A stretch of 64,000 bases of DNA, taken from positions 96,001 to 160,000 of the IMG/VR virus record IMGVR_UViG_3300046003_007336; one strand, 5' to 3'. How positions within the stretch are numbered: position 1 is the stretch's first letter; each line of letters starts with the position of its first letter. A model generated the notes under the pieces. That model worked only from the letters and a program-made list of their open reading frames with translations, searched no databases and was not told where the DNA came from. Below are positions 13,601 to 48,263 of the stretch, in pieces. Source of the DNA: a virus. Position numbers and translations under genes: made by a program.

Positions 13601-16600
13601 GCCATGGTGGTGGTGCCGATGGTATCGCCGGATTTCAGAGCGAACGCCGACGCGTGGTTACCGTCCAGGAGATCGGCGTCGAGGCCGGAGCCCGAGCCAT
13701 CGTTGCCATTGTCCCATACAATTCTCCACGCCTGCCAAGAGTTCGAGTTTTTTCCTCGAAGGGCGATTTGACCAGTGCGGTAGTCGCCGAATATTTGGTG
13801 CTGCCATGTGCTGTCGTAAACCTGACTGTAGAGCGCACCATCGGTTTGGCCGAGAAGCGACATGCTACCGACATAGCTGATACCGTTCTTTGCCAGAGTG
13901 TCGGCAGCGACGCCGCCACCGGAGTTGGTATTGGAGAAATCACCGGCATGGACGACCTTGTTACCATTGACCTGGAGGGCAGTAGAGAGGTCGAAGTTGG
14001 CCGTCGTGGCTTGAACACCCGACCGAGAAATTATCAATGCGCTCTGGGACGAAGCCCAGGCATCATTGATGAGTAGAAGATGAAGTTGATCTCCGTTTTG
14101 GGCAAGGGCGGAATATCTATTGTTGGCCGTCCCATCAGAATCATACATCGAGTAATACGGGTAGGCTGAGTTTGACGCCACTCCACCCGTAAACGTGACG
14201 TTTCCTGAAATCGTGCCGCCCGCTGTCGGAGAGAAAGCGTCCGTGATTCCGTAACCGGCCAGCGTCGTCGGGTTGGTTCCCGCAGTCACAATACCCTGTG
14301 CGTTGACGGTCACGCTCCGATAGGTCGAGGCAGTGACGCCAGACGTCGGGAGGTCACCGTTCGCAATAGCAGAAGCCGACCACGTGTCCGTGCCGGTGCG
14401 ACGGACGAAGCCGGTCGTGGCGAGACCTTCGACCGCAGCGAGATCATTCGCGAGAACGAGAGTCGGGTTGCCCGACACACCATCGCCGTTCGAGACGGTG
14501 ATGCCCGCAGCGGGCGCGGTCAGCGTCCGTGAAGCATAGGTGCTCGCACCCGTGCGATGAATGGCCCCATTGGTCGCAAGGTTGTGCAGTGCCAGAGCCT
14601 GACCGGTGAGTTGGAAATCGATTCCCGACTTCGTGATGCCGGTCGAGGCCGTGAATGTGGCCGAGCCACTGAACTGCACCCAGGTGACTGCGGTGGTTTC
14701 GAGCGTTCCTCCGGCATTGACCGTACAGGTCCAGCCCGTGTCTCCTTGGGTCGTTCCTTCTTCGACAAACACATATGCGGATACGAGTTCAGCCCAGGTG
14801 CTCGCGTCAACAGCACGAGCCCAAGCTCCAGCGGCGCAAACATAGATGCCGTTCTGAAGAGTAGATGTTTGGTTCTTGACCAGAACACGATCATTCGCGA
14901 TGACGGCGACGCCATCGATTGTTTGCGTGCCCGACAGAGTGATGTTTGCCGTCGTGGCGACGTGGACGGCGGCCTTCGCGGATAGTCCTTGAATGGAGTT
15001 ATCGACGTATTGCTTGGTCGCGGCCTGGAGGGCACTGGACGGGTCGGACGCCAGGGTGACGCTTCCAGTAAAGGTTACAGCACCAGCGGAAGAAATCGTC
15101 ATCCGACGAGTGAGATTTGTATCAAATCCCAATGCAGCGGAAACGGCGGTTCGAACGACAAATTCCGAGTTTGTGTTGTCGTAGTAAATCGTTGATCTGG
15201 ATGAGTTGTTATTGTAGAAATCAAGGGAGGTATACTGCTCACCTCCGTTATCGACACGAATCGAGTTTGCGTTGCTTCCCTTCACATGGAACTTAGCACC
15301 AGGGGTCGCAATATTAACGCCAACATCACCAGCGTAAGTGATGCTCATTCGGGCATCGGCCAGCGTCGCGGCGGTGTTGTCAGCACCACCGTTGTTGAGG
15401 ATGTGAATCGTACCACGAGCCGCACCATCGCCGATTTGAGCTTGAACGATGGCACTCTTCTGGAATGCGCGGCTGGCCTCGGTGTAGCCGAGGCCGATAC
15501 CGGCAAAGTTCCCCGCCGTGATGTTGAGACCCTGGCTGCCGAACACGGCGAATTGCCCCGTCGTCAAATGGGTGTGCAGTTTAGCCACGGGGGCCGTCGT
15601 GCCAATGCCAACGCTGCCATCGGTCTTGACCCGGACCTTTTCTGACCCGTTAGCCCACAGAGCCAGATCGCTTGATGCTTGGCCGCCAATGAGAGCTAGG
15701 TTGGTATCCCAGGATATGATGCCGTTATTCGCCGATGCACCCCAACGCTGAACGCCGTCTCCAGTGATGGTGATACGGCTGTTCAGGTTTACAGTTGTGT
15801 CACTGCCGGTGCCGCCGTCCACGATGTGGAGCTTGGCTGACGGAGAGACGCCTATGCCGACGTTACCTCCAAAGAAGTTCCTTGCCGCCGTGTCCTCTTG
15901 ATAGAGCCCATACGCTAGGTTGGTCTGCGTACCACCCGTGACATCACCGATGTAAACGCCATAGGTATTCGTGATGATACCAGAGTTGAAAAGCAGGTCT
16001 ACTTTCGCTCCGTAAGCGTTGGTTATTACGCCCGCCGCGTTCAAGTTTTGTATCTCGAACTTCCCAGCGATAGCATTTGTGTTGGTCCCAGCCGTCGTAT
16101 GATAGACAAGGAACCGACCGCCATGCATATTGCTGACCGTCTTAGTGGTCGTTGCGCCGCCCTGGGCCGCGAAATACCCTCCTGTAAAGGTTCCGGTGTA
16201 GTTGAACGCACTGCCGTTCGGGGCAGCTACGAACGAGCCGCCGATAGCTGACTGCGAATTATTTGCCGTGAGTACGACGTTTCGCTGGAAATTCCCTCCG
16301 ACTACCGTGGCGGTAGGGTCAGTAGCGTTGGCGTTTGCCGTGAGAAGAATGTTCGCGTCTACCGCTGTTCCGCCGATGGCGACGTTCCCTGCGAGTTGGG
16401 TAGTCCCGGCGTTCCAAAGCCCGTACCGGTTGGTTATGGTCGTGTTGGTTCCGGCGGTTGCGGAACCTGCGATGTAAACGGTAGCTGCGTTTGTGACCGT
16501 TATGGCGTTTGTTGACGCGAGCGTCGTAGTCCCGAAAGAGTGCCCGGCGCGAGTCGCCACCGTTCCTGCCGCCGCTGTTGTGGTGTCGGTGTAGGTGCTG

Positions 16601-17763
16601 GCGTCTACCGCGAGGCCTAGTCCGGTAGTTGTCCAAGCGGCTGCGGACCTCGCTCCCGAGATGTTGAGCAAGGCTAGAGGCGTGGCTGTACCGATGCCGA
16701 CGTTACCGGTGTCCGTGAACCTAGCGACTTCGACGTTGTTCTTGACGGAGACGATTACATCAGCAGTGCGAGAAATATCGCCATCACCGGCTCGAAGATT
16801 GAGGTCTGAGCCGCCGATTGAATTGAAGTAGATCGAATAGCCCACACTTGACGAGTCGCCGATCTGAAGGGCAGCATACGGGAGGTTGACCGTTGACGCC
16901 GTGCTGGTCGGCAAGCTAAAGAGCGTGGTGGTATTGCTCATGAAGCGGAGACCACGGCCAGATGCAGCTTTCAGGACGCTAAAGCCCGAGCCGTCCGCGT
17001 GGGGCATTGTCACATAACCAAGCGTGTCAACGCCGAAGACTTGTTCTCGACCTACGTTTACCGCAAATTTCTGAGCGGGAGTTCCCCCGATACCGACGTC
17101 TCCGGTTGCGGTGATGCGCATGCGCTCCGCGCCGGTTCCGCTCGAAGAGGTTCGGAACGACAGCGCAGTGGAGCCACCGTTGGACCGCGCCGACATCGTG
17201 AAATCGCCACCAGAGGAGTCCATGGACAGAACGCCAGCGATGGTGGCTGGCTCGGCATAGGTTCCGCCAGTCGTGAATAGCACGTTGCCAGTGAAGGTCG
17301 GCGCCGCAGATGCTGATTTTGCGTCCAGTGCAGTCTGAAGTCCGGTAACGGTAGAGATGGCCTGAACGCCAGTGTGGTTGACCCGAGCCAGCAGAGTGGC
17401 GTCGGAGGAGTTGGCGGTCGCGCCGGTTGCGATGCCATTGAGCTTGGTCTTGTCAGCAGCCGAGAGGAAACCATCAACCGACGTGGTTGCCGCAGCGTGG
17501 ACGTGTGACGAGACCGAATACGACCCCGCCGCCTGTTTGCCGTCCAGCGCGGCCTGAAGACCAGTGACCGTTGATATCGCTTGCTCGCCAGTGTGGTTGG
17601 CGCGAGCCAGAAGAGTGGCGTTAGACGAGTTGGCGGTCGCGCCAGCCGCAATACCGTCGAGCTTCGTTTTGTCGGCCGCCGAAAGGAAACCGTCAGTCGA
17701 AGTGGTGGCGACGACCAGGGTGCTGGTTAGGCCAGTGACGTCGGTAATATTGATCTTCTGCAT
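10678..17763 (-). CDS. Long tail fibre (2361 aa) with C-terminal intramolecular chaperone (peptidase S74-type)
   Basis: GNVGIGT repeats, five NDGxGSxLDADLLDG linkers, C-terminal SSDARLKEN...GFLAQE...V.YERLVPLAVAGIKEL coiled coil. Confidence 0.9.
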   Translation of the reverse strand: MQKINITDVTGLTSTLVVATTSTDGFLSAADKTKLDGIAAGATANSSNATLLARANHTGEQAISTVTGLQAALDGKQAAGSYSVSSHVHAAATTSVDGFLSAADKTKLNGIATGATANSSDATLLARVNHTGVQAISTVTGLQTALDAKSASAAPTFTGNVLFTTGGTYAEPATIAGVLSMDSSGGDFTMSARSNGGSTALSFRTSSSGTGAERMRITATGDVGIGGTPAQKFAVNVGREQVFGVDTLGYVTMPHADGSGFSVLKAASGRGLRFMSNTTTLFSLPTSTASTVNLPYAALQIGDSSSVGYSIYFNSIGGSDLNLRAGDGDISRTADVIVSVKNNVEVARFTDTGNVGIGTATPLALLNISGARSAAAWTTTGLGLAVDASTYTDTTTAAAGTVATRAGHSFGTTTLASTNAITVTNAATVYIAGSATAGTNTTITNRYGLWNAGTTQLAGNVAIGGTAVDANILLTANANATDPTATVVGGNFQRNVVLTANNSQSAIGGSFVAAPNGSAFNYTGTFTGGYFAAQGGATTTKTVSNMHGGRFLVYHTTAGTNTNAIAGKFEIQNLNAAGVITNAYGAKVDLLFNSGIITNTYGVYIGDVTGGTQTNLAYGLYQEDTAARNFFGGNVGIGVSPSAKLHIVDGGTGSDTTVNLNSRITITGDGVQRWGASANNGIISWDTNLALIGGQASSDLALWANGSEKVRVKTDGSVGIGTTAPVAKLHTHLTTGQFAVFGSQGLNITAGNFAGIGLGYTEASRAFQKSAIVQAQIGDGAARGTIHILNNGGADNTAATLADARMSITYAGDVGVNIATPGAKFHVKGSNANSIRVDNGGEQYTSLDFYNNNSSRSTIYYDNTNSEFVVRTAVSAALGFDTNLTRRMTISSAGAVTFTGSVTLASDPSSALQAATKQYVDNSIQGLSAKAAVHVATTANITLSGTQTIDGVAVIANDRVLVKNQTSTLQNGIYVCAAGAWARAVDASTWAELVSAYVFVEEGTTQGDTGWTCTVNAGGTLETTAVTWVQFSGSATFTASTGITKSGIDFQLTGQALALHNLATNGAIHRTGASTYASRTLTAPAAGITVSNGDGVSGNPTLVLANDLAAVEGLATTGFVRRTGTDTWSASAIANGDLPTSGVTASTYRSVTVNAQGIVTAGTNPTTLAGYGITDAFSPTAGGTISGNVTFTGGVASNSAYPYYSMYDSDGTANNRYSALAQNGDQLHLLLINDAWASSQSALIISRSGVQATTANFDLSTALQVNGNKVVHAGDFSNTNSGGGVAADTLAKNGISYVGSMSLLGQTDGALYSQVYDSTWQHQIFGDYRTGQIALRGKNSNSWQAWRIVWDNGNDGSGSGLDADLLDGNHASAFALKSGDTIGTTTMAAANSAQGLLLKSGSATGTWLAYYSDAAAQSTRSGYVGYGGSSSPHFHIYNERSAGNIELYTTGGGALRINSSTIWHAGNDGSGSGLDADLLDGQQGSYYATTGGNTFTGQQYVNTSGTQILAGSGNGYVMMGQRQSATESVALVGVGYSSIGLQLGYGVKTSTSSTGFVSSYSGTLGRSIIDVAGDIRFFTASAQAVTVDTAITMTERMRVDAAGAVLINTASQMAGVTSAKLTVVQTAGTADWAAVVKGGTTSSQSYGVLVDAGTNSSDYSMLLRNSSSAALLTVRGNGEIVASNIIKSTNGLADYGIPAGATYSSRYVSPGGGAYTTGTSSVTGAIKIRLPNLHSNAMLRMRVEVYNYSTGTAETFVISGYPYSATWANVSAEQYTDSGTVKKSVRFGNDGTKNCIWIGEVGQVWAYPQVFITEFNMGYSGYTSGWDGGWAISFATAFDTVNVTRAAAYHWNSSNDGTGTGLDADLLDGQEGTYYRSATNINAGTLSDSYLPTTMAGKTFSSRVTVALGGGEGVRIANDAAYYSWYNTANSSRNGYIQHSGSTITLANEVTNSNINLTTTGTGTVRINANTAWHAGNDGSGSTLDADLLDGYHATSFALLGTASTFTKPQIISSDVPGNDWTNFGLQIREVGLVGVAQSSGSYDPSIAFHWSGRDVNRLHMNASGVLMWGVATIWNSTNDGAGSGLDADLLDGYSSSTTSDTASTVPVRDGSGFMNQRVVRNSSGAVTDGMYIGYGNAGGTGSATRIYGGGSSNIGLYVNATNLTWYDGTTQQPLWFNGGIPVGAWQKSTDGYNRFNFSSGSTTFFSSPDNYAWRNYLDVSILTMTSGGTLAAAGDITAYSSDARLKENVREIEDPLGKISQIGGYVFDWRKELVDELGFTPYQYEDEHGFLAQEIQKIMPDAVRPAPFNDKYLTVKYERLVPLAVAGIKELTTKNAALEAKIADLESKLDRILGMLEQKV
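17340..17700 (-). repeat. Duplicated ~57-aa module at the fibre N-terminus
   Basis: DGFLSAADKTKL(D/N)GIA.GATANSS.ATLLAR.NHTG.QAISTVTGLQ.ALD occurs twice; boundaries approximate. Confidence 0.85.
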
Positions 17764-17792: not shown

Positions 17793-20700
17793 TTAGTCGC
17801 GGAGCAAGAAGGCAATATCAGCGAGCGTCGAATCTACGCTGACTGGTGCATGGATGGTGATTAGGTCACCGGCAGCAACGCTCGTGCTGGAATACGCCAC
17901 GGTCCCCGTCGTTCCTGCTGCTGAGAACGTGATAGTTCCGACCTGTGAATTGTTTTTCTTGATCACAAACACGGTAGAGGCAGTTGCCGCAACCAGAGAG
18001 CGGGCCGACGAGTTGGCCGCCGAGAACGTGAACGTGTAGGGGGCGATTTGACCATCCACGACCTGGGACGTGGTCGGCTTGCCGGAATGGAACGACGACA
18101 GCAGGACGTCTTCGATCAAGGCGTAGTTGCCCAGAAGACGAGCCGAGACGACGTCTCCGTTGAGCGGCGTGGTCACCATGGTGAGGTTTTCGCCCGACAC
18201 CGTGTAGTCAGTCGTGGGTCGCTGAACGATGCCGTTCACGGTTACGATGATGAGGTCGGCTGTGGTTCCGGTGGCATCGAGATCGAAGACGCTTACGATG
18301 CCATCTGCGGTGAATGTTTTGGTGAATGGGGTCCCGAGACCAACATCGACGTTACCAGCACCATCGGGTGCCAGCCCGTTGATGGTCTGGATACGGAGAC
18401 CGAGTTCGGTCGTGAGGCTTGAGACATCCGAGATGCCAATCGATAGAGCGGTCTTGAGCGAACCAGCCGAGATGGCGCCCTGGAGACCAGCGACGCTAAC
18501 GACCTGATCGGTGTTGTCGATTTTTTCCCAGACCGTGCCATTGCTGACAATCCAGTCGCCGATCTTCCAATCCGTGATGCCATCCTTGGCAGTCGAACCA
18601 GCGGTACTGACGACGTAATAGTTGCCTTTGTTTCCTGTCGCCGCTGCGGGGATTGTCGGAGAATCGGTGGTGGCATTCCACGTGCCCTGATAGCGCATTG
18701 CACCCAGAACCGTATCGGGCAGATAGGCGGTCGAAATTTTTGCATCGCCACCGAGCGGCGCGTAGCCGTTGGCCTGACCTTTTTCTGACGAAAGCTGTGC
18801 ATCCGAGATGTTGTATCCGGCCAGCGTTGTGGGCTTGCCGGTGATGGAAGCGAAGGACGGCGTGATCGTGACTGTACCAGCGGCGGTAATCTGCCCCTTG
18901 GCGTTGACGGTGAAGGTCGGAGCAGCGGTAGCGGACCCGAAAGAACCCACGTTCGAGTTGACAGTGGCCAGGGTCGTGGCGCCGCTGCCAGCAGACGTCG
19001 TGATGTCACCAGACAGCGCGGGCAGTCGAGCGGTCGAAAGCGTTCCGGTGGCGTTGGTGAGATCGAGGTAGTAGGCACCATGCTGGCCATCCAGGAGATC
19101 GGCATCGAGCGTTGAGCCCGTTCCGTCGTTGCCTGCGTGCCACATCGTGTTCACGCCTACGAACGGAACTACCGCAAACGTGACCTGTCCGGTCGCCCGC
19201 GAAATCGACATCGTGTTGAATGTTTGAGTCCCGGCGTCATTGTAGGCGAGTAGGTTGAAGGTGGAACCGGCCGACGAGCCACTTTCTGCTCCGGCATCAA
19301 CTGTCATGTTCCATCGGCGAGTTCCGCTGGTCTGCCATTCGATGGCGCGATGCTGACCAGCAGGCGCGGTCAGATTGAGGACGGCTCGACCCGAGGTAGA
19401 GATCGTCAGCGCATCCGTGAGGGTGCCGCCAGACAGCGGAAGGGCATCAGTGATGCCGTATCCCGTCAGCGTGGTGGGCTTGCTCGTGATCGAAGACCAC
19501 GCAGGCGTGATGGTCGTCGCCGAGGCAGCAGTGATGAGACCCTTGGCGTTGACGGTGAAGGTGGCGGTCTGAGTGGCAGAGCCAAACGAGCCCACATTGG
19601 AGTTCACGGTCGCGAGGGTGATGGCCGTCGCGCCAGCGACAGTAGACGCATCACCGCTGAAGGCGGGCATGCGAGCAGCCGCAACGGTGCCGGTCAGGTT
19701 TGCGGCAGCGAGATAATAGGGCCCATCCTGGCCATCTAGGAGGTCAGCATCGAGACCGGAGGTCGCGCCGTCCACGGTGATGAGTTTGGCGAGCACGTCG
19801 GCAGCCGTGTAGGTCGATACCGAGACCGCGTCTGTGATGCCGTATCCCGATAGAGTGGTGGGCTTGCTCGTGATGGAAGACCACGCCGGGGTGATCGTGA
19901 CCGAGCCCGCTGCGGTGATGAGACCCTTGGCATTGACGGTGAAGGTCGAAGCAGCGGTAGCGGAGCCGAACGAACCAGTGTTGGCGTTCACTGTCGCGAG
20001 AGTGGTTGCGACTGTTCCGACCGTAGTCGTGATGTCGCCAGTCAGGGCGGGTAGACGGGCCGCCGCCAGGGTTCCGGTGACGTTGGTTAGATCGAGATAG
20101 TAGGTCCCGTTTTGGTTATCGAGAAGATCGGCATTTAGGCCAGAGCCGGGACCATCATTATTGGCGTGCCAAAGGCCCGCACCACCCACCGTTGGCGTAT
20201 TGGCGAAGTTTACGATCTCCGCGTTGCTGATATCCATCACGATGCTCTGCGTCGCGAATGTCACCGGGTTAGCGGTGTTGTGGCGGATATAGAACGAGCC
20301 ACTGTTGAGGTTTATCGTCCAACCACCAATGGGAGCAGTTTGGTCATTCTCGATAAACTTGATTCCAGGAACCACACCAGTGATGGTCTGAATTTCAGTG
20401 AAAATGTTGGCTACGCCCAAACCCGCCGAGTCGGTTATGCCGTATCCAGACAGCGTGGTGGGTTTGCTCGTGATCGATGACCACGCCGGAGTGATCGTGA
20501 CTGTGCCAGCGGCAGTGATGAGTCCTTTGGCATTGACCGTGAAAGTAGGCGCGGCAGTAGCGGAGCCGAAGGAACCCACATTGGAGTTGACGGTCGCGAG
20601 AGTGGTGGCCGCGCTTCCTGCGGACGTCGTGATGTCGCCAGTCAGGGCAGGCAGGCGGGCAGCCGCAAGGTTCCCGGTCAAGTTCCCGGCGTCGTTGAAG

Positions 20701-22469
20701 GCCGGGTTGTCCAACTGAGTGGCCCGGATGATCGACGCAGTTTCGGCCGAGTAGAAAATCACCGTCACGGCGTTCGGTGCCGTGTTGATCACCGGGGCAA
20801 CGGTGAAGACCCAGTTGGCTCCGAAGGTCAGAGCGCGACCACCAGTGACATCCTGCTTGTAGATCACGACACCCGAACGTCCGGTGATGACGTTGGTCGG
20901 GTTGGCGAGAAGACGGGTGTTGCCGATTCCCGAGGTAGCGGTCAGAATCCAGTTGACGCCAGACTGCATGTCGATGGTGACGGTGGCGCCATCGGTGAGG
21001 GTGACTGGCTGATCTTGGGCCGCCAGACCAGAGGGCGAAACCACCGTGGTGGTGCTGGAGCCAGCGCGGACGACAGAGTTGGCAGCCACCGGGAGTTGGG
21101 CGATTGGAACGAGACCAGACGCCAGAGAGGCGTAGCCGTTGGTCGCTCCCTTGTTTGCTGCGTTCTCGGGCGTGAACCCCAGCGCGGCTGTGATATCACC
21201 GTTGACGAAGTTGAGCGCGGTCTTGAGGCCCGAATCCGTGATGACGCCGGTCAGTCCAGCGACGCTGATCACGGCGTCGGTGTTGTCAATCTTGTTCCAG
21301 GTTGTGCCGTTGCTGATCAGCCAATCACCGCTCAGCCAATCGGTGATTCCACTGATCGAGGTGGAGCCGCCCGTGGCGACGATGTAGTATTCGCCCTTGT
21401 TGGTCGAGGACGCAGCCGGAATGGTCGGAGTATTGGTATTCGCGTTCCAGGTCCCCATGTATCGCAGGGCACCGAGGACGACGTCCGGGAGATAGGTGGT
21501 GGCGATCTTGGAGTCGGCGCCGAGTGGGGCGTAGCCGTTGGCTTGACCCTTCTCGGAGATGGGTTGGGCATCGGTAATTCCGTAGCCGACCAGCGTCGTG
21601 GGCTTTGATGTAATCGAGTTCCACGCGGGGGTGATGGTTGCCGACCCAGCCGAGGTGATCAATCCCTTGGCGTTGACGGTGAAGATCGGAGCGGCAGTGG
21701 CGGAGCCAAAGGAACCCACGTTGGTGTTCACCGTCGTGAGCGTGAGAGTGGCGGAACCAGTTGAAGAAGAGATGTCGCCAGTCAGGGCAGGCAGGCGAGC
21801 AGCCGCCAGCGTTCCGGTCAGGTTTGCGGCACTGAGATAGTAGGCTGCACTCTGCCCATCCAGGAGATCAGCATCGAGACCAGAGCCCGTACCGTCTACG
21901 GTGAGGAGCTTGGACAGAACATCCGCCGCAGTATAGGACGAGGCCGTGACTGCATCCGTGATGCCATAGCCGGAAAGCGTCGTGGGCGTGCTCGTAATAG
22001 AAGACCACGCGGGGGTGATGGTTACCGAACCAGCGGCGGTGATCAACCCTTTGGCGTTAACGGTGAAGGTCGGCGCGGCAGTGGCGGAACCAAACGAACC
22101 CACATTGGAGTTCACCGTCGCGAGCGTGGTTGACGCTGAACCAACGGTAGTCGTGATGTCTCCGATCAAGGCCGGAAGACGTCCTGCCGCCAGGGTTCCG
22201 ACTAGGTTACCGGCATTGAGGAAGTAGGTGCTGTCCAGTCCATCCAAGAGTGTAGCATCAGCAGCCGTCCCCGTTTCACCGAGGCCGCCGCCGTAGGGCG
22301 CACCCCACCCGGTATCGACGTGCTTGGGTCCGTAGAACTCACCGTTAGTTTTGTTGACGTATATTTCGCCGGGGAAACCCAGGCCGGAAGAGGGCGCCCC
22401 AGTGCCGACACGTATGCCATACGACACGCCGTTCTTGGTAAGTCCTGAAAGATGTGGAATCGCGCTCAT
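17793..22469 (-). CDS. Second repetitive tail fibre / virion fibre protein (~1558 aa)
   Basis: Six ~85-aa repeats, two SEKGQANGYAPLG modules, DADLLDG linkers; TAAATA at 22489-22494 favours ATG 22469. Confidence 0.85.
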   Translation of the reverse strand: MSAIPHLSGLTKNGVSYGIRVGTGAPSSGLGFPGEIYVNKTNGEFYGPKHVDTGWGAPYGGGLGETGTAADATLLDGLDSTYFLNAGNLVGTLAAGRLPALIGDITTTVGSASTTLATVNSNVGSFGSATAAPTFTVNAKGLITAAGSVTITPAWSSITSTPTTLSGYGITDAVTASSYTAADVLSKLLTVDGTGSGLDADLLDGQSAAYYLSAANLTGTLAAARLPALTGDISSSTGSATLTLTTVNTNVGSFGSATAAPIFTVNAKGLITSAGSATITPAWNSITSKPTTLVGYGITDAQPISEKGQANGYAPLGADSKIATTYLPDVVLGALRYMGTWNANTNTPTIPAASSTNKGEYYIVATGGSTSISGITDWLSGDWLISNGTTWNKIDNTDAVISVAGLTGVITDSGLKTALNFVNGDITAALGFTPENAANKGATNGYASLASGLVPIAQLPVAANSVVRAGSSTTTVVSPSGLAAQDQPVTLTDGATVTIDMQSGVNWILTATSGIGNTRLLANPTNVITGRSGVVIYKQDVTGGRALTFGANWVFTVAPVINTAPNAVTVIFYSAETASIIRATQLDNPAFNDAGNLTGNLAAARLPALTGDITTSAGSAATTLATVNSNVGSFGSATAAPTFTVNAKGLITAAGTVTITPAWSSITSKPTTLSGYGITDSAGLGVANIFTEIQTITGVVPGIKFIENDQTAPIGGWTINLNSGSFYIRHNTANPVTFATQSIVMDISNAEIVNFANTPTVGGAGLWHANNDGPGSGLNADLLDNQNGTYYLDLTNVTGTLAAARLPALTGDITTTVGTVATTLATVNANTGSFGSATAASTFTVNAKGLITAAGSVTITPAWSSITSKPTTLSGYGITDAVSVSTYTAADVLAKLITVDGATSGLDADLLDGQDGPYYLAAANLTGTVAAARMPAFSGDASTVAGATAITLATVNSNVGSFGSATQTATFTVNAKGLITAASATTITPAWSSITSKPTTLTGYGITDALPLSGGTLTDALTISTSGRAVLNLTAPAGQHRAIEWQTSGTRRWNMTVDAGAESGSSAGSTFNLLAYNDAGTQTFNTMSISRATGQVTFAVVPFVGVNTMWHAGNDGTGSTLDADLLDGQHGAYYLDLTNATGTLSTARLPALSGDITTSAGSGATTLATVNSNVGSFGSATAAPTFTVNAKGQITAAGTVTITPSFASITGKPTTLAGYNISDAQLSSEKGQANGYAPLGGDAKISTAYLPDTVLGAMRYQGTWNATTDSPTIPAAATGNKGNYYVVSTAGSTAKDGITDWKIGDWIVSNGTVWEKIDNTDQVVSVAGLQGAISAGSLKTALSIGISDVSSLTTELGLRIQTINGLAPDGAGNVDVGLGTPFTKTFTADGIVSVFDLDATGTTADLIIVTVNGIVQRPTTDYTVSGENLTMVTTPLNGDVVSARLLGNYALIEDVLLSSFHSGKPTTSQVVDGQIAPYTFTFSAANSSARSLVAATASTVFVIKKNNSQVGTITFSAAGTTGTVAYSSTSVAAGDLITIHAPVSVDSTLADIAFLLRD

Positions 22470-22520
22470 GGGGCCCCTTGCTATGGGGTATTTATTCAAA
22501 GCCCGGATATGCTTTTTTAC

Positions 22521-25655: not shown

Positions 25656-26023
25656 CCAAGCATCTCGGCGAACGGGCCTCGTTCTTCACCAACCTGGAAG
25701 GTATCGGTTTCGTTGGGTTCGAGAGAATCAGCACCGTTGAACTCATGGAAACGGACGCCGCCGACATAGAGACCATCCTGAGGGATTACGGTCTCGTCCA
25801 CATCTCGTCATGGCCTCGCGTCAATTGGGAGCAGTTCCGGGATGTCTTGGATGCCATGATCGACGAGGGCTGGCATGTCGGCAAGTTCACCTATGCGTTC
25901 GTCTGGGACACCCGCGTGGACCCCAGCCATGGCGGCGTCCCCACGACCCTATGGGCGTTCGAGAACCTATCGACTGCCACGAGAATGTCTTTGAATTTTG
26001 ACTCCAGGACGGTAGCTCAGTAG
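25652..26023 (+). CDS. Hypothetical protein (weak F-x4-D family member)
   Basis: GTGA overlap; ends FENLSTATRMSLNF. Confidence 0.65.
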   Translation: MTKHLGERASFFTNLEGIGFVGFERISTVELMETDAADIETILRDYGLVHISSWPRVNWEQFRDVLDAMIDEGWHVGKFTYAFVWDTRVDPSHGGVPTTLWAFENLSTATRMSLNFDSRTVAQ

Positions 26024-26052
26024 TATCGGGTTTCCCTTTACTCAGTGAGTTC

Positions 26053-26400
26053 ATGTCAATCAAGATCACAGAGGCCTTCGTGCCTCACCCGGACAAAGTC
26101 TTCGTCACCGATATTGAATCCGGTCCTCTGAAAACCCAGAGCGGCCTCATCATCCCCGACGACAACATGCAGAACCGTGGCATCCGCCCGCGTTGGGCCC
26201 AGGTCTACGCCATCGGCGCAAACATCACCGACGTCGCGGTCGGGGAATGGATTTTCCTCGAACACGGGCGATGGGGGTTCGGTATCGACCTCGAACTCCC
26301 GACCGGAGACGTCGTCCGCGTCTGGCACGCAGACTTCCCCAACGGTTCCATGATGGCTTCGACCGAGGACCCGCGCGCGAACCAAAAAACCGTTCTGTGA
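26053..26400 (+). CDS. groES: GroES-like co-chaperonin
   Basis: PHPDKVFV...KTQSGLIIPD...AQVYAIG...VAVGEWI Cpn10 pattern. Confidence 0.85.
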   Translation: MSIKITEAFVPHPDKVFVTDIESGPLKTQSGLIIPDDNMQNRGIRPRWAQVYAIGANITDVAVGEWIFLEHGRWGFGIDLELPTGDVVRVWHADFPNGSMMASTEDPRANQKTVL

Positions 26401-26459: not shown

Positions 26460-27392
26460 ATGAGCTTGAAACTATGGGTGGACGAATACCGCCCACAGAC
26501 GCTGGACCAGTATGTCTGGCGCGACCCCGAGCAGCGGGCTCAGGTCGAGAAGTGGCTTTCGGATGGGGCTCTTCCCCACCTCCTCCTTTCGGGCGTGCAG
26601 GGGACAGGGAAGACCTCCCTCATCCTTCTGATGCTCCGGCTGCTCGGAATCCCAGACGCCGATATTCTGATGATCAACGCCAGCCGTGACCGGCTCGTGG
26701 ACGACATTCAGGAGAAGATCGTCAATTTCGTCTCGACGTGGGCCTTCAACGACAGCGGCATCAAGTACGTCATCCTCGACGAGGCCGACAAGCTCTCGCC
26801 GATGGCGCAGGGCCTGCTCCGGGGTGAGATCGAACGCTTCTCGGACGTGTGTCGATTCGCCCTCACCTGCAATGCGGTCAACAAGATCACCGACCCGATC
26901 AAGTCTCGCTGCCAGGGCTTCCACTTTCTCACGCTGGACCGCGATGATTTCACGGCCCGCGCCGGAGAAATTCTCGTCAAGGAAGGCATCGAGTTTGATG
27001 TCGAGACTCTGGTCTCGCATGTCGATGCCACCTACCCGGATATGCGGAAGTGCATCGGGATGCTGCAACAGCACAGCACGACCGGCACCCTCATCGCGTT
27101 CGCGGTCGCGGACATGGAGGGGGCGCAGGATTACCTCATCGACGTCATCGCCATGATTATGGGCGGCGATCTTCTTGGCGCCCGCAAACGTCTGGTCGCG
27201 GAGGCTCCACCGGAGGACTACCCAGACATCTACCGCTATTTCTATCGCAACCTCGAAATCTGGTCCGATACTCGTCAGGGTCAGGATGAAGCCATCCTGA
27301 TCATCCGCCGCGCTCTGGTCAACCACCCGAACGTTGCCGACATCGAGATCAATCTTGCGGCCTGCATGGTCGAGCTTTCGAGGCTGCGTTGA
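26460..27392 (+). CDS. gp44: Sliding-clamp loader AAA+ subunit (RFC / T4 gp44-like)
   Basis: LWVDEYRPQTLD, Walker A GVQGTGKTS, Walker B ILDEAD, SRC motif. Confidence 0.92.
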   Translation: MSLKLWVDEYRPQTLDQYVWRDPEQRAQVEKWLSDGALPHLLLSGVQGTGKTSLILLMLRLLGIPDADILMINASRDRLVDDIQEKIVNFVSTWAFNDSGIKYVILDEADKLSPMAQGLLRGEIERFSDVCRFALTCNAVNKITDPIKSRCQGFHFLTLDRDDFTARAGEILVKEGIEFDVETLVSHVDATYPDMRKCIGMLQQHSTTGTLIAFAVADMEGAQDYLIDVIAMIMGGDLLGARKRLVAEAPPEDYPDIYRYFYRNLEIWSDTRQGQDEAILIIRRALVNHPNVADIEINLAACMVELSRLR

Positions 27393-27604
27393 AATCAGTA
27401 GTCGAAAACACCAACCACATCACTGCCGTGCGGAAGGCCACTCGGGTGTTCTATATCAACACCGGAAACATGCCTTCGGCTAAAGCCCGCGCTCATCTTG
27501 AGCAAGTCAAACAAGACATCATGGCTACTGCTGATACTGTATTCCACGAAAACTTCTTTATAGCAACGGGCGACGAATCCAGTGTAGAAGTATTCTACCC
27601 CTGA
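27389..27604 (+). CDS. Stand-alone portal clip-domain-like mini-protein A
   Basis: RVFYINTGNMPSAKARAHLEQVKQDI vs the portal in this window RVFYIDVGNMPPVKARAHIEQVKNEI (19/26 identical); TTGA overlap with clamp loader stop. Confidence 0.8.
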   Translation: MKSVVENTNHITAVRKATRVFYINTGNMPSAKARAHLEQVKQDIMATADTVFHENFFIATGDESSVEVFYP

Positions 27605-27612
27605 GGAACAAC

Positions 27613-27828
27613 ATGCTTAGCGACTACTCCCCAAATGGAATGTTCGTCCAGCCGCCGAAGAGAACTCGCATCTTCTACGTCGGCATCGGCGAAAACAACT
27701 CAACCACGTCGGCAAGAGCGAAGAAGCTCGTTGAGGAGTTCAAGCGGGAAACAAATCCCGACAGCACTCACTACGAGAACATCTTCCTCGCGTCGCCGAA
27801 CAACCACCACCACGTCCATATTTTTTAA
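27613..27828 (+). CDS. Portal clip-domain-like mini-protein B (diverged paralogue)
   Basis: GAGGA SD; RTRIFYVGIG...ARAKKLVEEFKRE...HYENIFLA parallels mini-protein A. Confidence 0.7.
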   Translation: MLSDYSPNGMFVQPPKRTRIFYVGIGENNSTTSARAKKLVEEFKRETNPDSTHYENIFLASPNNHHHVHIF

Positions 27829-27836
27829 GGATATTC

Positions 27837-28253
27837 ATGACTGCCGAAACGAAGAAGACTTTCGGGGACCGCTACCTGCGCAACCGTCCCTTCCTGGTCA
27901 TCTCGACCATCGCCCGCCCCGCCAAGGGCATCCGCACCTACAAGCAGGGCTGGGCTGACACCTCATCCAACTGGGCCACGTTCGAACAGCCGCAGATCGT
28001 TGATCGGGTCTCGAACAAACACCTCACCGAAGCCAGCGTCATCATCGACATCCTGAATCGCGCAGTGGTCAAGAACCGCCACAGCGACGGGAACGACGAC
28101 AAGCTGGCCGTCGAGCACTTCCTGACCAAATACACCGAACTCGTCACCGAGGGTCTGGTCCAGTTCGCGCGCAACTCCGGCCTCGTCAACGAAGCCACCG
28201 TGGCCGCCGCCGCTGCTGAAGCGGATGCGGAGGAAGCTGCGGCTGCCGAGTGA
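27837..28253 (+). CDS. Hypothetical protein
   Basis: AAGGA SD; codon bias. Confidence 0.85.
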   Translation: MTAETKKTFGDRYLRNRPFLVISTIARPAKGIRTYKQGWADTSSNWATFEQPQIVDRVSNKHLTEASVIIDILNRAVVKNRHSDGNDDKLAVEHFLTKYTELVTEGLVQFARNSGLVNEATVAAAAAEADAEEAAAAE

Positions 28254-28825
28254 CCAACAAGATCATCCTCACGGACGTCGATGAGACCATTCTGAATTTC
28301 ACCGGCCCCTTCGAGGCATGGCTTGCAGAGCAGGGCTACACCGTCAACGGAACCCTGCGGGACACCTACGGCATCCACCACCTGATCGGCATCCACGACC
28401 TCGACGAGATCACCAGGATTGTGGGCGAGTTCCACGATGCAGGAGAGACCTTCGCAGCCTTGGAGCCGGAACCACACGCTCTTGAAGCCATGACGGAACT
28501 CTATCTGGACGGCTTCAGGTTCGTCGCCATCACGGCGGTTGACGATACGCCCAACATCAAGGCGAGGCGTATCGAAAACCTCAACCGGGCGTTCGGGTTC
28601 GACTTCGAAGATTGTATCTGTGTCGGTCAGATGCAGCCCAAGACGGAGGCGTTGAAGAAATTCTCGCCGACCGTCTGGGTCGAGGACAACCCCCACCACG
28701 CCTACGAGGGCAGCCGGTTGGGTCACCGCACATTCCTGATCAACCACGCCTTCAACGAATATTTCAAAGATGATCTCGTCACGCGGGTCCAGGACTGGCG
28801 CGAGATCAGAAAGGCTATCCTGTGA
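28250..28825 (+). CDS. HAD-superfamily 5'(3')-nucleotidase-like phosphatase
   Basis: Motif I IILTDVDETIL; motif IV VWVEDNP. Confidence 0.8.
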   Translation: MTNKIILTDVDETILNFTGPFEAWLAEQGYTVNGTLRDTYGIHHLIGIHDLDEITRIVGEFHDAGETFAALEPEPHALEAMTELYLDGFRFVAITAVDDTPNIKARRIENLNRAFGFDFEDCICVGQMQPKTEALKKFSPTVWVEDNPHHAYEGSRLGHRTFLINHAFNEYFKDDLVTRVQDWREIRKAIL

Positions 28826-28941
28826 ACTTCATCGCTGAACATGGCGACATACTGATTGGCATCGGCGTCGGTGCCGCCGCCGCTCTGGTGGGCGGAGTCG
28901 TCTTCCTCCTGTGGCTTTTCAAGGACTTTCGAATCAGATGA
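28822..28941 (+). CDS. 39-aa single-pass membrane peptide (below ORF-track cut-off)
   Basis: GTGA and ATGA overlaps on both sides; MNFIAEHGDILIGIGVGAAAALVGGVVFLLWLFKDFRIR. Confidence 0.6.
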   Translation: MNFIAEHGDILIGIGVGAAAALVGGVVFLLWLFKDFRIR

Positions 28942-29489
28942 TCTCTGGTTCCTTGCCGCCGCTAGCCGGACACGCAACCGCGACCTCGCGGCTTGGGCCA
29001 TACACATACTCCGTTCGCGGGCGTGACGCCCACGGTCACGAGGTCACACTTGGTTCGTTCACTGACAACGAAAAAGCGATTAGTTTCAAAGTCAAACAAA
29101 TCCTCAACCGTGGCACCTTGGGTTCCTACATAACGCCAAACAAAGCCCTTGCTTTCAACAAAGCGCACGTGGTCATTCAAACGGTCCATCGTTTTCAGAG
29201 ATTCCTGAAGGATGACGAGTTGAAAACTATCGGCTCTATTGTTCTCCCGAATATCGATGCTCGATATCCGACTGCGAAAGGATATGCGGACGCTGAGCTT
29301 ATCGGCCAGTTGGAGTGGGAGTATGTCGATTACAATCTAGTTGCCATAAAGCGTCCAAATAAATGGTATTGCACCATGGAAGTTGTGGCCGAACTGAATA
29401 AACTTACCCCACACAATGGTCACATTATTTGGGAGACCAACTTCGGCGATTTGGAAGCCGACGTATCAAAGGAGATGCTTGCTTGCTGA
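28938..29489 (+). CDS. Hypothetical protein, lower GC than its neighbours
   Basis: ATGA overlap; AT-richer codons. Confidence 0.65.
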   Translation: MISGSLPPLAGHATATSRLGPYTYSVRGRDAHGHEVTLGSFTDNEKAISFKVKQILNRGTLGSYITPNKALAFNKAHVVIQTVHRFQRFLKDDELKTIGSIVLPNIDARYPTAKGYADAELIGQLEWEYVDYNLVAIKRPNKWYCTMEVVAELNKLTPHNGHIIWETNFGDLEADVSKEMLAC

Positions 29490-46392: not shown

Positions 46393-48189
46393 TTAGCCGA
46401 GCGGACCAGCGGGAGCCCCACCAGGAGGCGGAGCACCCGGTGCGCCACCATCGGCTGGCGGTGCACCCTCCATCTCGCCACCTTCCATATCCGGCTCGTC
46501 CATCGGCATGTCGTCCATACCCATGTCGCCCATCGGACGGATACCAACCGAAGACAGGTCCGCATCGTTCTCGCTTTCGGCCGGGCTGGAACCCGTCGCG
46601 CGCTTGAGCTTGGCGGCGTTTTCCTGTTTCCACAGCGTCTCGTTTTCGAGGATTTCTTCTTCCGTGAGGTTGAGGAACCGCTTGAGCTTGAAACGCTCAG
46701 AGAGAATCTTGATGCCAGCGACTTGGCTATAGACGGCGGCTTGCGCCTGATCGACTTCGATCTGACGATACTTGGTGAAGTTCTGCGGCGGGTTGAAGCG
46801 AATCTCGTAGAGGTTCGAATCGATCACCATCTCACCTGACTCTGCCAGGAACTTTTTGAACTCGAAATCGAAGACGGGGGCCAGCAGGGTCTGGAGACGC
46901 ATGCAGTATTTGTTGAAGCGGTATTCCTGAATCATCGCGGCGCCGAGCTTGCCGTCGTTGTAGGCACCCTGGCCGCTCTCGTCGTCGCCGAGCGGGAGGT
47001 ATGATTGCGGGATGCGGAGACCACGGGCCAGCTTCTTGGTGAACGCGGTCATGTCGCCGATCTCACCGAGGTTGTCTCCGCCCGGCAGGGTTTCGACCTT
47101 GGAGCCCCGGCCTTCAGCGGACTGTGCGAAGTAGAAATCCTCGTTGATCGACAGGGGATTGTAGGCCGCGTCGATCATGGAGTTGCCGCCGCCGCTGTGG
47201 TTGGGGATACGACGCTGGTGGATTTCGTTCTTCACCTGCTCGATGTGAGCACGAGCCTTGACGGGTGGCATGTTGCCGACGTCGATGTAGAAGACGCGGC
47301 GTTCTGGCGCGCGCTGGACGCGATAGATGATGACCGAGTCCTCAAGGAGTTCCTTCTGCTTGAAGGTCTTGAAAACCGGCTCCAGAACCGACTGACCGAA
47401 CGGCCAGTTGATGTCCATGCCGACGCTGAGGCTGAGGTGAACGACGTGATCTGCGTCGATGGCGAACAGTTCGTTCGACGGGTTGTTGTTCTGGCGCATC
47501 TGGCGCGGGTCACGCCCAGCACCAGCCATACCGAACGCACCGGAACCACCGCCCGACGACGGGCGAGCCGTGGTGATCGCGGCGCCGCCGTTGGCAGAGC
47601 GATACTGGCTCATGTCGGCCTTGGAGGCAGCGAACTTCGCTCCGTTGTTGTAGTCGAAACCACGGATGAAATACTCAATGGGCTTCTTGCCGTCTTCTTC
47701 ATCGACGCGGACCATCTCGACCGAGTAGTGATCGAGCCAGAGCCATTCAAAGGTCTCTGGGTCACGAAGGAAGAACGCATCGCCGTTCTTGATGCAGTTG
47801 CGGAACGTATACCAGAGACGTTTGCGGAACTCGTTCGTCTTGACCCACTTCGCCATGTTGGATTTGAGGATTTTGATCTCAGTCTCGGTGGCGGAATCGT
47901 CCAGATAGTGGATTTCGAACGGCTCGTCGTTCTGCTCCTCAGACTGGGTGCAGAAATCAGCGATAGTGTCGAGAGCCGCGTTGATGTCGGAGTCGCGGTC
48001 CATGTCGTCATACTGGTAATAACGCTGGATGCGGTTCGGGTGACCAGCGTAGACTTCCGGGAGGTAGCTCGAATAGTTTGAGCTTGTACCAGTGGGCTCC
48101 GACATCCTGTCGTAGAAACCCATCGCCTGGGACGCGCCGTTGTTATCTTGTGTCGGTTGAGCTACCGAGAAATACTTACGCCAACTCAT
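46393..48189 (-). CDS. gp20: Portal vertex protein (T4 gp20-like)
   Basis: LLEDSVIIYRVQRAPERRVFYIDVGNMP, EDFYF...GSKVETLPGG, LARGLRIP; start 48189 or 48201; TAAATA at 48245-48250. Confidence 0.95.
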   Translation of the reverse strand: MSWRKYFSVAQPTQDNNGASQAMGFYDRMSEPTGTSSNYSSYLPEVYAGHPNRIQRYYQYDDMDRDSDINAALDTIADFCTQSEEQNDEPFEIHYLDDSATETEIKILKSNMAKWVKTNEFRKRLWYTFRNCIKNGDAFFLRDPETFEWLWLDHYSVEMVRVDEEDGKKPIEYFIRGFDYNNGAKFAASKADMSQYRSANGGAAITTARPSSGGGSGAFGMAGAGRDPRQMRQNNNPSNELFAIDADHVVHLSLSVGMDINWPFGQSVLEPVFKTFKQKELLEDSVIIYRVQRAPERRVFYIDVGNMPPVKARAHIEQVKNEIHQRRIPNHSGGGNSMIDAAYNPLSINEDFYFAQSAEGRGSKVETLPGGDNLGEIGDMTAFTKKLARGLRIPQSYLPLGDDESGQGAYNDGKLGAAMIQEYRFNKYCMRLQTLLAPVFDFEFKKFLAESGEMVIDSNLYEIRFNPPQNFTKYRQIEVDQAQAAVYSQVAGIKILSERFKLKRFLNLTEEEILENETLWKQENAAKLKRATGSSPAESENDADLSSVGIRPMGDMGMDDMPMDEPDMEGGEMEGAPPADGGAPGAPPPGGAPAGPLG

Positions 48190-48263
48190 ATGTCGTCTCA
48201 CTTTTAAGTCAAGGGGCAGTATAGCAGAGCCCGCATTGTGAGACTATTTAGTATAGACAGAAC

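What the first reader, a model, noticed from the sequence alone, without database searches (positions are those of the whole stretch)
27389..27828. Two tandem mini-proteins that copy the phage's own portal clip domain
Seen: ORF 27389-27604 contains RVFYINTGNMPSAKARAHLEQVKQDI (27443-27520). The portal gene 20 kb away encodes RVFYIDVGNMPPVKARAHIEQVKNEI (47221-47298, minus strand): 19 of 26 residues identical. The DNA differs mostly at synonymous positions, so the protein sequence appears to be under selection. The mini-protein then skips the portal's internal loop and resumes with FHENFFIATGDESSVEVF, echoing portal INEDFYFAQSAEGRGSKVETL. ORF 27613-27828 repeats the same strand-helix-strand layout in diverged form. 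Both look AT-richer than their flanks, are coupled behind the clamp loader and have no TAAATA late promoter, so they should be made before the real portal. Established: in T4 gp20 this segment belongs to the clip domain, which lies outside the capsid and docks the terminase; Avs4-type STAND defence proteins are triggered by phage portals. Inference: these are portal mimics acting as decoys for portal-sensing immunity, as inhibitors of terminase docking by co-infecting T4-like phages, or as timers of the phage's own packaging. I know of no description of such a system but could not search.
Basis: partly seen in the sequence, partly recalled or inferred. Interest (0 to 1): 0.9.

Follow-up and report, generated by a model that had tools for sequence, protein, structure and literature searches.

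The report
Stand-alone portal clip mini-proteins, tandem pair
A giant T4-like phage carries two small neighbouring genes, inserted into its clamp-loader operon, that encode free-standing copies of the portal "clip" (the exposed spot where the DNA-packaging motor and the neck dock); they are old, kept by selection and belong to an unnamed family, so they are probably soluble mimics of that docking site, but what they bind is untested.

Summary
ORF1 (27389-27604) matches the phage's own portal (BLASTP E=7e-13; Pfam Portal_T4 above cut-off). ORF2 (27613-27828) is a diverged paralog (E=2e-7 to ORF1). Both model confidently as strand-helix-strand-strand and span T4 gp20 clip residues ~279-351 without the internal loop.

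They are not decaying fragments. Synonymous sites against the portal are saturated while protein identity is kept (0 of 5000 neutral simulations reach it), and two diverged relatives keep orthologs.

They are not fresh copies of this phage's own portal either. They belong to a distinct mini-protein family (16 further clusters among 1.84 billion representatives), and an ORF1+own-portal clade is rejected (AU p=0.0002).

The genes are accessory. In 32 related phages none lies within 3 kb of the clamp loader, and ORF3 follows the clamp loader directly in at least 10.

Function is inferred. A free T4 gp20 peptide (288-311) binds terminase gp17 and blocks packaging, and the family keeps its N, M and K contact residues. 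A soluble competitor for a clip ligand is therefore the best reading (about 45%). An immune-sensor decoy remains possible (about 20%).

No published description was found. This scan has noted similar stand-alone clip genes before on other DNA (at least eight unchecked notes).

The parts
27389..27604 (+). ORF1, 71-aa stand-alone portal clip module (mini-clip). TTG start overlaps the clamp-loader stop.
   Evidence: BLASTP to own portal E=7e-13. Pfam Portal_T4 28.1 bits, above cut-off. AF2 pLDDT 85.7 with E17-24, H30-45, E53-60, E65-69. Orthologs in L008 and L020. Start codon supported by the ATG in the L008 ortholog.
27613..27828 (+). ORF2, 71-aa diverged paralog. It has a 3-residue insertion at the tip, lacks the N/M contact residues and ends in a His-rich last strand.
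   Evidence: BLASTP to ORF1 E=2e-7. Ortholog L008:815-1039 is 62% identical. GC3 0.75 in frame. AF2 pLDDT 87.6 with the same element order.
26460..27392 (+). Clamp-loader large subunit (RFC/gp44-like), the upstream gene to which ORF1 is coupled.
   Evidence: Pfam AAA, DNA_pol3_delta2 and Gp44_lid. NCBIfam RFC small subunit E=2e-47.
27837..28253 (+). ORF3, 138 aa, unknown family. It follows the clamp loader directly in at least 10 relatives, so the mini-clip genes were inserted between the two.
   Evidence: ORF3 homologs follow the clamp loader directly in at least 10 of 32 IMG/VR relatives. No Pfam, PHROG or NCBIfam hit.
28250..28825 (+). ORF4, 191 aa (phrog_420, unknown function), conserved next gene of the operon.
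   Evidence: PHROG hit E=1e-30. Homologs follow ORF3 in relatives.
25998..26026 (+). Sigma-70-like promoter candidate (TTGACT-17-TAGTAT) in front of the GroES-like gene, clamp loader, ORF1 and ORF2.
   Evidence: Consensus scan. TTGAC[AT] is enriched in upstream regions. This is a consensus match only.
46393..48201 (-). Portal protein (T4 gp20 family), the source fold of the mini-proteins.
   Evidence: Pfam Portal_T4 E=1.5e-97. 32% identical to T4 gp20.
47083..47310 (-). Clip domain of the portal (residues 298-373, equal to T4 gp20 279-351), the segment that the mini-proteins correspond to.
   Evidence: Alignments with T4 gp20 and the family. Clip boundaries from PMC4493910.
48245..48250 (-). 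TAAATA late-promoter-like motif upstream of the portal. It is absent from the ORF1/ORF2 operon.
   Evidence: Motif enrichment: 9 of 35 upstream regions against 0.49 expected.

Best explanation
ORF1 and ORF2 are expressed, selected members of an unnamed family of stand-alone portal clip domains.

Shown:
- Each is the minimal clip: strand b1, helix a6, strands b2 and b3, equal to T4 gp20 ~279-351. The a6-b2 loop is missing, and so are the stem, wing and crown.
- The family split from portals long ago and has been kept by purifying selection.
- In this lineage the genes were inserted as accessory genes between the clamp loader and ORF3, and were then duplicated.

Inferred:
- The protein shows the portal's docking surface (tip plus helix a6) in soluble form and competes with the real portal for a clip ligand.
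- That ligand is most likely the large terminase, or alternatively the gp13-type neck adaptor.
- The effect would be to delay or block DNA packaging or head completion, either to time the phage's own packaging or to disable co-infecting relatives.
- ORF2 has lost the tip contact residues. It may pair with ORF1 to rebuild the groove between two neighbouring clips; this was not tested.
For: Homology and fold:
- ORF1 to portal E=7e-13; Pfam hit above cut-off.
- The family profile hits T4 gp20 279-312 in the PDB, E=2e-5.
- AF2 models have pLDDT 85.7 and 87.6 with the clip's element order.
- The best matches in BFVD are T4-like portals (TM 0.57-0.64, prob 1.0).

Selection:
- pS 0.79-0.88 against pN 0.15-0.28 versus the portal.
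- 0 of 5000 neutral simulations reach the observed protein identity.
- Orthologs in L008 and L020 show pS 0.71-0.85 and pN 0.31-0.38, like neighbouring ORF3.

Family:
- 16 further representatives, mostly 55-120 aa and matched over nearly their full length.
- Shared motifs and indels. Minis separate from portals with 96/97 support.

Accessory status: no mini-clip lies within 3 kb of the clamp loader in any of 32 relatives.

Ligand precedent:
- gp20 peptide 288-311 binds gp17 and inhibits packaging. N291A-M292A and R295A-K296A abolish packaging (PMC4493910).
- The family keeps N, M and K at these positions.
- The neck adaptor arm inserts between two adjacent a6 helices (PMC12929587).

Expression signals: SD sequences, 4-nt overlap, sigma-70-like promoter, no late motif.
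Against: - No binding was tested. The complex predictor was unavailable, and the large terminase is not on this 198.5-kb fragment.
- ORF2 lacks the N/M tip residues.
- An early-made inhibitor of the phage's own late packaging motor would be costly.
- Similarity to the own portal is inconsistent. ORF1 ranks its own portal 1-2 of 104, but P0010 ranks its presumed own portal last.
- One family member has a late-type upstream motif.
- Clip-like elements fused to a QueD/PTPS enzyme (L063) and to a 748-aa protein (P0011) suggest a docking or tagging role, not inhibition.
- The genes sit next to nucleotide-metabolism genes in seven contexts. This reading does not explain that.
Confidence: 0.45

Rival explanations
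1. Immune decoy or blocker. The mini-clip is made early and occupies the portal-binding pocket of a host sensor (Avs4, Avs11 or another portal-sensing system) without activating it, so the real portal is not detected later.
For: - The genes are accessory, patchy and fairly fast-evolving (pN 0.31-0.38), as conflict genes tend to be.
- This window has a sigma-70-type operon with no late motif.
- In other phages the genes sit beside NADAR and NUDIX genes.
- Capsid-protein (Gp23) fragment genes occur near mini-clips in L007 and L014.
- Portals are known Avs triggers.
Against: - Avs sensors are reported to envelop extended surfaces of the whole target fold. The clip is about 12% of the portal.
- A fragment that binds the sensor might activate it instead of blocking it.
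- No host, and so no sensor, is known for this phage.
- Nothing was tested.
Confidence: 0.2
2. Docking tag or adaptor. The clip module is a portable address that brings itself or a fused partner to a clip-binding site such as the terminase, the neck or portal subunits. It would couple DNA-precursor or DNA-modification enzymes to packaging and would not inhibit.
For: - L063 is a QueD/PTPS enzyme with an N-terminal segment like portal residues 255-326 (E=5e-5).
- P0011 carries the module at the C-terminus of a 748-aa protein.
- The genes are repeatedly coupled to the 3' end of clamp loader, dCMP deaminase, dNMP kinase and MazG-like genes.
Against: - Most members are free-standing with nothing fused.
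- Adjacency may only reflect where small accessory genes accumulate.
- No interaction data exist.
Confidence: 0.15
3. Portal-assembly modulator. The mini-clip caps the strand edges of newly made portal subunits, because the clip sheet forms between subunits. This would prevent or time ring formation.
For: - The clip three-stranded sheet is the only main-chain inter-subunit contact in gp20 (PMC4493910).
- The mini-proteins keep all three strands.
- The ORF1 helix is closest to its own portal among 104 portals.
Against: - The AF2 monomer models are compact with high confidence, which suggests the sheet closes within one chain.
- Most relatives have no mini-clip at this locus, so it is unlikely to be a core assembly factor.
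- P0010 is unlike its presumed own portal.
Confidence: 0.1
4. Non-functional remnants of a partial portal duplication, for example debris from intein homing at the clip.
For: - Inteins sit at two sites flanking clip strand b2 in 14 of 15 long portal homologues.
- P0014 looks like a plain portal fragment that ends at one of these sites.
- T4 itself carries decayed partial duplicates (alt.-1 and alt.-2, annotation).
Against: - Both ORFs are intact with SD sequences and have orthologs in relatives whose synonymous sites are saturated.
- The neutral simulation is rejected.
- Family-specific motifs are conserved over 16 clusters.
- The fold predictions are confident.
Confidence: 0.03

Closest known systems
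Clip domain of T4-type portal gp20 (residues 279-358; Pfam PF07230; PDB 3JA7, 6UZC) and the synthetic gp20 288-311 peptide
   Same: They share ancestry and the same order of elements (b1, a6, b2, b3). The family starts at the clip boundary (residue 279) and keeps N291, M292 and K296 equivalents. The free peptide binds gp17 and inhibits packaging (PMC4493910), which is the activity proposed here.
   Different: The mini-proteins are natural, separately encoded proteins of 55-120 aa. They have no stem, wing or crown, and they lack the 15-18-residue a6-b2 loop and a 2-3-residue turn. They end right before the channel loop. They form their own clade apart from portals (96/97 support). ORF2 has lost the tip residues.
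PLE Gpi of Vibrio cholerae satellites (bioRxiv 10.1101/2024.04.22.590561)
   Same: It is a small protein encoded by a mobile element that binds the large terminase and blocks genome packaging.
   Different: Gpi belongs to a satellite and not to the phage itself. The paper reports no relation to portals. Binding is demonstrated for Gpi and only inferred here.
TerI (ORF65) of Listeria prophage phi10403S (bioRxiv 10.1101/2025.02.27.640495)
   Same: It is an 8-kDa phage-encoded protein that stops invading phages from packaging DNA by targeting the free terminase before it meets the portal. It is an inter-phage conflict gene.
   Different: TerI binds the small terminase subunit and is not portal-derived. 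It comes from a temperate phage, made under both lysogenic and lytic conditions.
MicroProteins (small single-domain paralogs that titrate partners of their multi-domain relatives; known from plants and animals, cited from my own knowledge)
   Same: The logic is the same: a short protein derived from one interaction domain of a larger protein acts by competition.
   Different: They come from another domain of life with other folds. No phage example built from a structural virion protein was found in the literature searched.

Membership tests
Portal_T4 (PF07230), T4-type portal proteins | Significant match to the family profile | tested here: met
   ORF1 scores 28.1 bits against a cut-off of 22.9, E=1.1e-6. 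ORF2 has no hit, and is linked only through ORF1 and the family profile.
Portal_T4 (PF07230), T4-type portal proteins | Full portal architecture (wing, stem, clip, crown; about 430 profile positions) able to form the dodecameric channel | tested here: not met
   Only profile positions 190-232 of 433 are covered. The proteins are 71 aa and span gp20 ~279-351 only. They are therefore portal-derived but are not portals.
Portal clip domain fold | Strand, helix a6, then two strands in this order, resembling the clip of portal structures | tested here: met
   AF2 element order. The best BFVD matches are portals, TM 0.57-0.64. Caveat: against solved chains there is no match (Foldseek none at E<=1e-3, VIA best Z 3.8). 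A possible reason is that the clip sheet in real portals spans two chains.
Unnamed mini-clip family (this work) | Mostly 55-120 aa (one member is the C-terminus of a 748-aa protein). xTRVFY strand, G-N/x-M/L tip with K-A, YEN(F/I)F strand, (R/K)(V/I)E(V/I)F at the C-terminus, no a6-b2 loop | tested here: met
   ORF1 meets all features. ORF2 meets all except the tip and the conserved Glu of the last strand, which is His. Profile search E=2.8e-36 and 2.8e-38 (both helped build the profile). Independent members score E=3e-13 to 2e-4.
Terminase-binding packaging inhibitors (Gpi, TerI, gp20 peptide) | Direct binding to a terminase subunit and inhibition of packaging | not testable with these tools
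   The complex predictor was unavailable. The large terminase is not on the contig. Only the conserved contact residues are known.
Anti-defence proteins against portal-sensing STAND sensors (Avs4, Avs11) | Binds the sensor or suppresses its activation by the portal | not tested
   No host or sensor sequence is at hand. Only indirect context is available.

The most novel reading that the evidence does not exclude
Giant T4-like phages hold a diversified toolkit of portal-derived docking modules. Some are free mini-clips, some are tandem pairs that rebuild the groove between two neighbouring clips, and some are clip elements fused to enzymes. In this reading they act as natural molecular mimics of the portal vertex. 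They would capture terminase or neck proteins of competing phages, or blind host sensors that recognise portals. They would arise repeatedly because the clip is an intein-homing hot-spot. This would be a new class of phage conflict gene built from the phage's own virion parts, alongside the capsid-protein fragments seen next to them in other phages.
Probability: 0.25. Interest if true: 0.8.

Novelty: new variant of a known kind. Interest (0 to 1): 0.66.

Why it matters
If these proteins bind terminase or neck proteins, they are nature's version of the synthetic gp20 peptide that blocks T4 packaging. That would be a genetically encoded, evolvable inhibitor or timer of the packaging motor, and a probe for the poorly resolved portal-terminase interface.

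If they bind host sensors instead, they would be the first trigger-mimic counter-defence against sensors that recognise portals.

Either way they show that single interaction domains of virion proteins can be released as independent genes and kept for long periods. They also give a short, soluble and easily expressed handle for direct tests (pull-down, packaging assay, sensor toxicity assay).

Tried and rejected
Nothing was folded.
The structural atlas library was not installed. The Atlas model of ORF3 is poor, with no usable hit.
- Word-indexed protein search: found only the query itself for both ORFs. The exhaustive HMMER search was needed.
- Pattern scans with the family alignment: IMG/VR and JGI contigs gave nothing. 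A single-protein clamp-loader scan also gave nothing.
- GenBank phages: only full-length portals were hit.
- Population dN/dS: not possible, because the other assemblies of this phage are 99.7-100% identical with no change in ORF1 or ORF2.
- Solved-structure fold searches: no portal match.
- P0014 as a 'Rosetta-stone' fusion of two mini-clips: rejected. Its second unit is a plain portal fragment with the loop retained, ending after b2.
- Co-variation of minis with their own portals: inconsistent, and only two pairs were available.
- Large terminase: sought with T4 gp17 and two Pfam families and not found on this 44%-complete record.
- ORF3 as a gp62-like clamp-loader small subunit: no library supports it, so it is left open.
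- Genome-wide fragment litter: rejected. ORF1-portal is the only such pair in 198.5 kb.

Full report
WHAT IS THERE

The window is bases 96001-160000 of a 198.5-kb IMG/VR viral contig that CheckV rates 44% complete. It carries T4-type core genes: portal, Gp23 capsid protein, RFC-like clamp loader and a GroES-like gene. Its portal has thousands of relatives, the closest 75-93% identical over the clip region, on contigs of up to 600 kb. The phage therefore belongs to a large clade of uncultured jumbo T4-like phages.

ORF1 (27389-27604) and ORF2 (27613-27828) are both 71 codons. ORF1 starts with TTG in a TTGA overlap with the clamp-loader stop, 5 nt after a GAGG. In the diverged relative L008 the ortholog has ATG at the identical place after the same upstream bases. 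ORF2 and the next gene, ORF3, each have their own Shine-Dalgarno sequence.

- ORF1 matches the phage's own portal with E=7e-13, 24/45 identical. It passes the Pfam Portal_T4 cut-off over profile positions 190-232.
- ORF2 does not match the portal directly. It matches ORF1 with E=2e-7.
- A profile of the family hits T4 gp20 residues 279-312 in the PDB. With the T4 sequence in hand, the mini-proteins span gp20 ~279-351.
- That span covers strand b1, helix a6 and strands b2 and b3. It lacks the 15-18-residue a6-b2 loop and stops where the channel loop begins. The published clip domain is residues 279-358, three strands plus a6 (PMC4493910).
- AlphaFold2 gives confident models with this order of elements: ORF1 pLDDT 85.7 and ORF2 pLDDT 87.6.
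- Against predicted viral structures, the best matches of the ORF1 model are T4-like portals (TM 0.57-0.64).
- Against solved chains nothing matches. A possible reason is that in real portals the clip sheet is built from two neighbouring chains, whereas the model is a compact monomer.

SELECTION, NOT DECAY

- Between ORF1 and the portal segment, third codon positions are 17/43 identical and second positions 34/43. pS is 0.79-0.88 (saturated) and pN is 0.15-0.28.
- In 5000 neutral simulations run to the same third-position divergence, the mean protein identity was 6.6/43. None reached the observed 24.
- ORF2 has the genome's coding signature (GC3 0.75, GC2 0.37). ORF1 has an unusual GC3 of 0.54.
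- L008 is a relative whose clamp loader is 64% identical. It keeps the order clamp loader, ORF1 ortholog (48%), ORF2 ortholog (62%), ORF3 ortholog (52%).
- L020/L021 keep a single mini-clip in the same slot.
- Ortholog pairs have saturated pS (0.71-0.85) and pN of 0.31-0.38, like neighbouring ORF3.

A FAMILY OF ITS OWN

- An exhaustive HMMER search of 1.84 billion cluster representatives found 16 further members at E<=1e-3. Most are 55-120 aa and matched over nearly their full length.
- They share motifs (xTRVFY, G-N-M..x-K-A, YEN(F/I)F, and (R/K)VEVF at the C-terminus) and indels that portals lack.
- In a maximum-likelihood tree of 20 minis and 28 portals including T4, minis and portals separate with 96/97 support. 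ORF1's nearest relative is another mini (P0004, 56%).
- Forcing ORF1 to group with its own portal is rejected (AU p=0.0002). A lineage-internal duplication giving ORF1 and ORF2 is not rejected (p=0.097).
- The title's 'copy of the phage's own portal' is therefore wrong in the strict sense. The split from portals is old.
- GenBank phages show only full-length portals. No paper describing such proteins was found.

ACCESSORY AND MOBILE WITHIN GENOMES

- In 32 IMG/VR relatives with clamp loaders 42-58% identical, no mini-clip lies within 3 kb. In at least 10 of them ORF3, then ORF4, follows the clamp loader directly. The genes were therefore inserted into a conserved operon in one sub-lineage.
- Elsewhere, family members sit at the 3' end of dCMP deaminase (two lineages), dNMP kinase, NADAR and MazG-like genes, often with a 4-nt overlap.
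- Complete 424-608-kb relatives hold further, more divergent clip-like ORFs:
  - a 65-aa full mini of another subtype (L062, E=2e-6 to the portal);
  - two b1-a6-only ORFs (L064, L065);
  - a QueD/PTPS enzyme with an N-terminal segment like portal residues 255-326 (L063, E=5e-5).
- P0011 carries the module at the end of a 748-aa protein.
- In this phage's 198.5 kb, ORF1, ORF2 and the portal are the only clip-bearing sequences.

TIMING

- The canonical TATAAATA is absent. (C/A)TAAATA is the most enriched upstream hexamer (9 of 35 regions against 0.49 expected) and precedes the portal and other structural genes.
- None lies on the + strand from 22.5 to 30.5 kb. There, TTGAC[AT] sigma-70-like boxes precede the gene at 22573 and the GroES-like gene at 26053.
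- Early or middle expression is thus plausible for this pair, but it is an inference from motifs only.
- One family member (P0003 in L009) has the late-type TAAATA-5 nt-ATG arrangement.

HOW IT MOST LIKELY WORKS

The clip is the docking site for terminase gp17 and later for the neck.

- Tip residues N291, M292, R295 and K296 contact gp17. N291A-M292A and R295A-K296A abolish packaging, and M292I blocks initiation of packaging. A free 24-residue peptide, gp20 288-311, binds gp17 and inhibits packaging (PMC4493910).
- The mini-proteins contain the homolog of exactly this peptide, and the family keeps N, M and K.
- The neck adaptor gp13 inserts its C-terminal arm between the a6 helices of two adjacent clips (PMC12929587). 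This gives a possible reason for a pair of modules.

My best reading (about 45%) is a soluble competitor for a clip ligand. The large terminase is the first candidate and the neck adaptor the second. The purpose would be to time the phage's own packaging or to disable co-infecting relatives.

Patchy distribution and fairly fast evolution fit a conflict gene better than a core assembly factor. The immune-decoy reading (about 20%) shares those arguments. It is weakened by the report that Avs sensors wrap whole folds. The enzyme fusions and the constant company of nucleotide-metabolism genes suggest a docking-tag role (about 15%). A portal-assembly cap (about 10%) and dead remnants (about 3%) are less likely.

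LIMITS

No interaction was tested. The terminase is not on the contig. P0014, which at first looked like a natural fusion of two modules, turned out to be a plainer portal fragment, so it gives no support for pairing.

EARLIER NOTES OF THIS SCAN

At least eight earlier notes on other genomes describe stand-alone portal-clip mini-genes in giant T4-like phages and read them similarly. They are unchecked AI notes and I read them after forming this view. They agree with it but are not independent evidence.

What this window adds:
- a conserved tandem pair with a tip-less second paralog;
- proof of insertion into the clamp-loader operon;
- the formal rejection of an own-portal origin;
- the intein hot-spot flanking clip strand b2.

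Noticed in passing
window 4568(-), 7877(-), 9102(-), 10680(-), 17774(-), 35557(-), 36392(+), 54875(-), 57052(-), 60593(-): 12 of 21 TAAATA motifs are followed by ATG or GTG only 3-5 nt downstream, and 10 of these open ORFs of 71-2361 aa. The fixed short spacing leaves no room for a Shine-Dalgarno sequence, which suggests leaderless late mRNAs. The same arrangement occurs in relatives L009, L019, L020 and L022.
   Followed up: partly
L007:3667-4776 (+) and L014:7529-7852 (-): [quoted passage not shown] They lie next to mini-clip or portal-fragment genes in two other phages. The L014 copy is 79% identical to this window's capsid protein over that stretch. From memory this region overlaps the Gol peptide that triggers the Lit protease; I did not check that.
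   Followed up: partly
portal homologues P0054-P0106 (relative to window portal residues 350 and 360; window ~47122-47152, minus strand): 14 of 15 long (>=700 aa) portal homologues carry inteins at one of two sites flanking clip strand b2. One is after ...AAYNPL and the other after ...EDYFFAQ. The first site coincides with the edge of the loop that the mini-proteins lack, and P0014 ends at the second. Homing at the clip may seed clip fragments.
   Followed up: partly
L063:1372-2118 (+), from a 524-kb complete relative: A QueD/PTPS enzyme (Pfam E=1.7e-15) has an N-terminal ~85 residues similar to portal residues 255-326 (stem helix, b1, a6). A Bax1-I family membrane protein follows it.
   Followed up: partly
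window 27613-27828 (ORF2 residues 63-69) and L008:815-1039: The last strand of ORF2 is a conserved histidine ladder (N-H-x-H-V-H-I-F). It replaces the family's conserved Arg/Lys and Glu. This could be a metal or pH site, or a changed partner.
   Followed up: no
window 10678-17763 (-) and 17793-22499 (-): Two giant adjacent ORFs (2361 and 1568 aa) share an 81% identical 27-residue stretch. The second carries a Phage_phiTE_241_C domain according to the Logan gene table.
   Followed up: no
window 27389-27604 versus neighbours: ORF1 has GC3 0.54, while ORF2 has 0.75 and neighbouring genes 0.77-0.82. ORF 28911-29489 is also low (0.54). The unusual codon use of ORF1 despite its age is unexplained.
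   Followed up: no
L013:301-2547 (P0011): A 748-aa protein combines a large unknown N-terminal region, an N4 gp49/Sf6 gp66 domain (PF13876) and a C-terminal mini-clip. A GcrA-like gene follows it.
   Followed up: no
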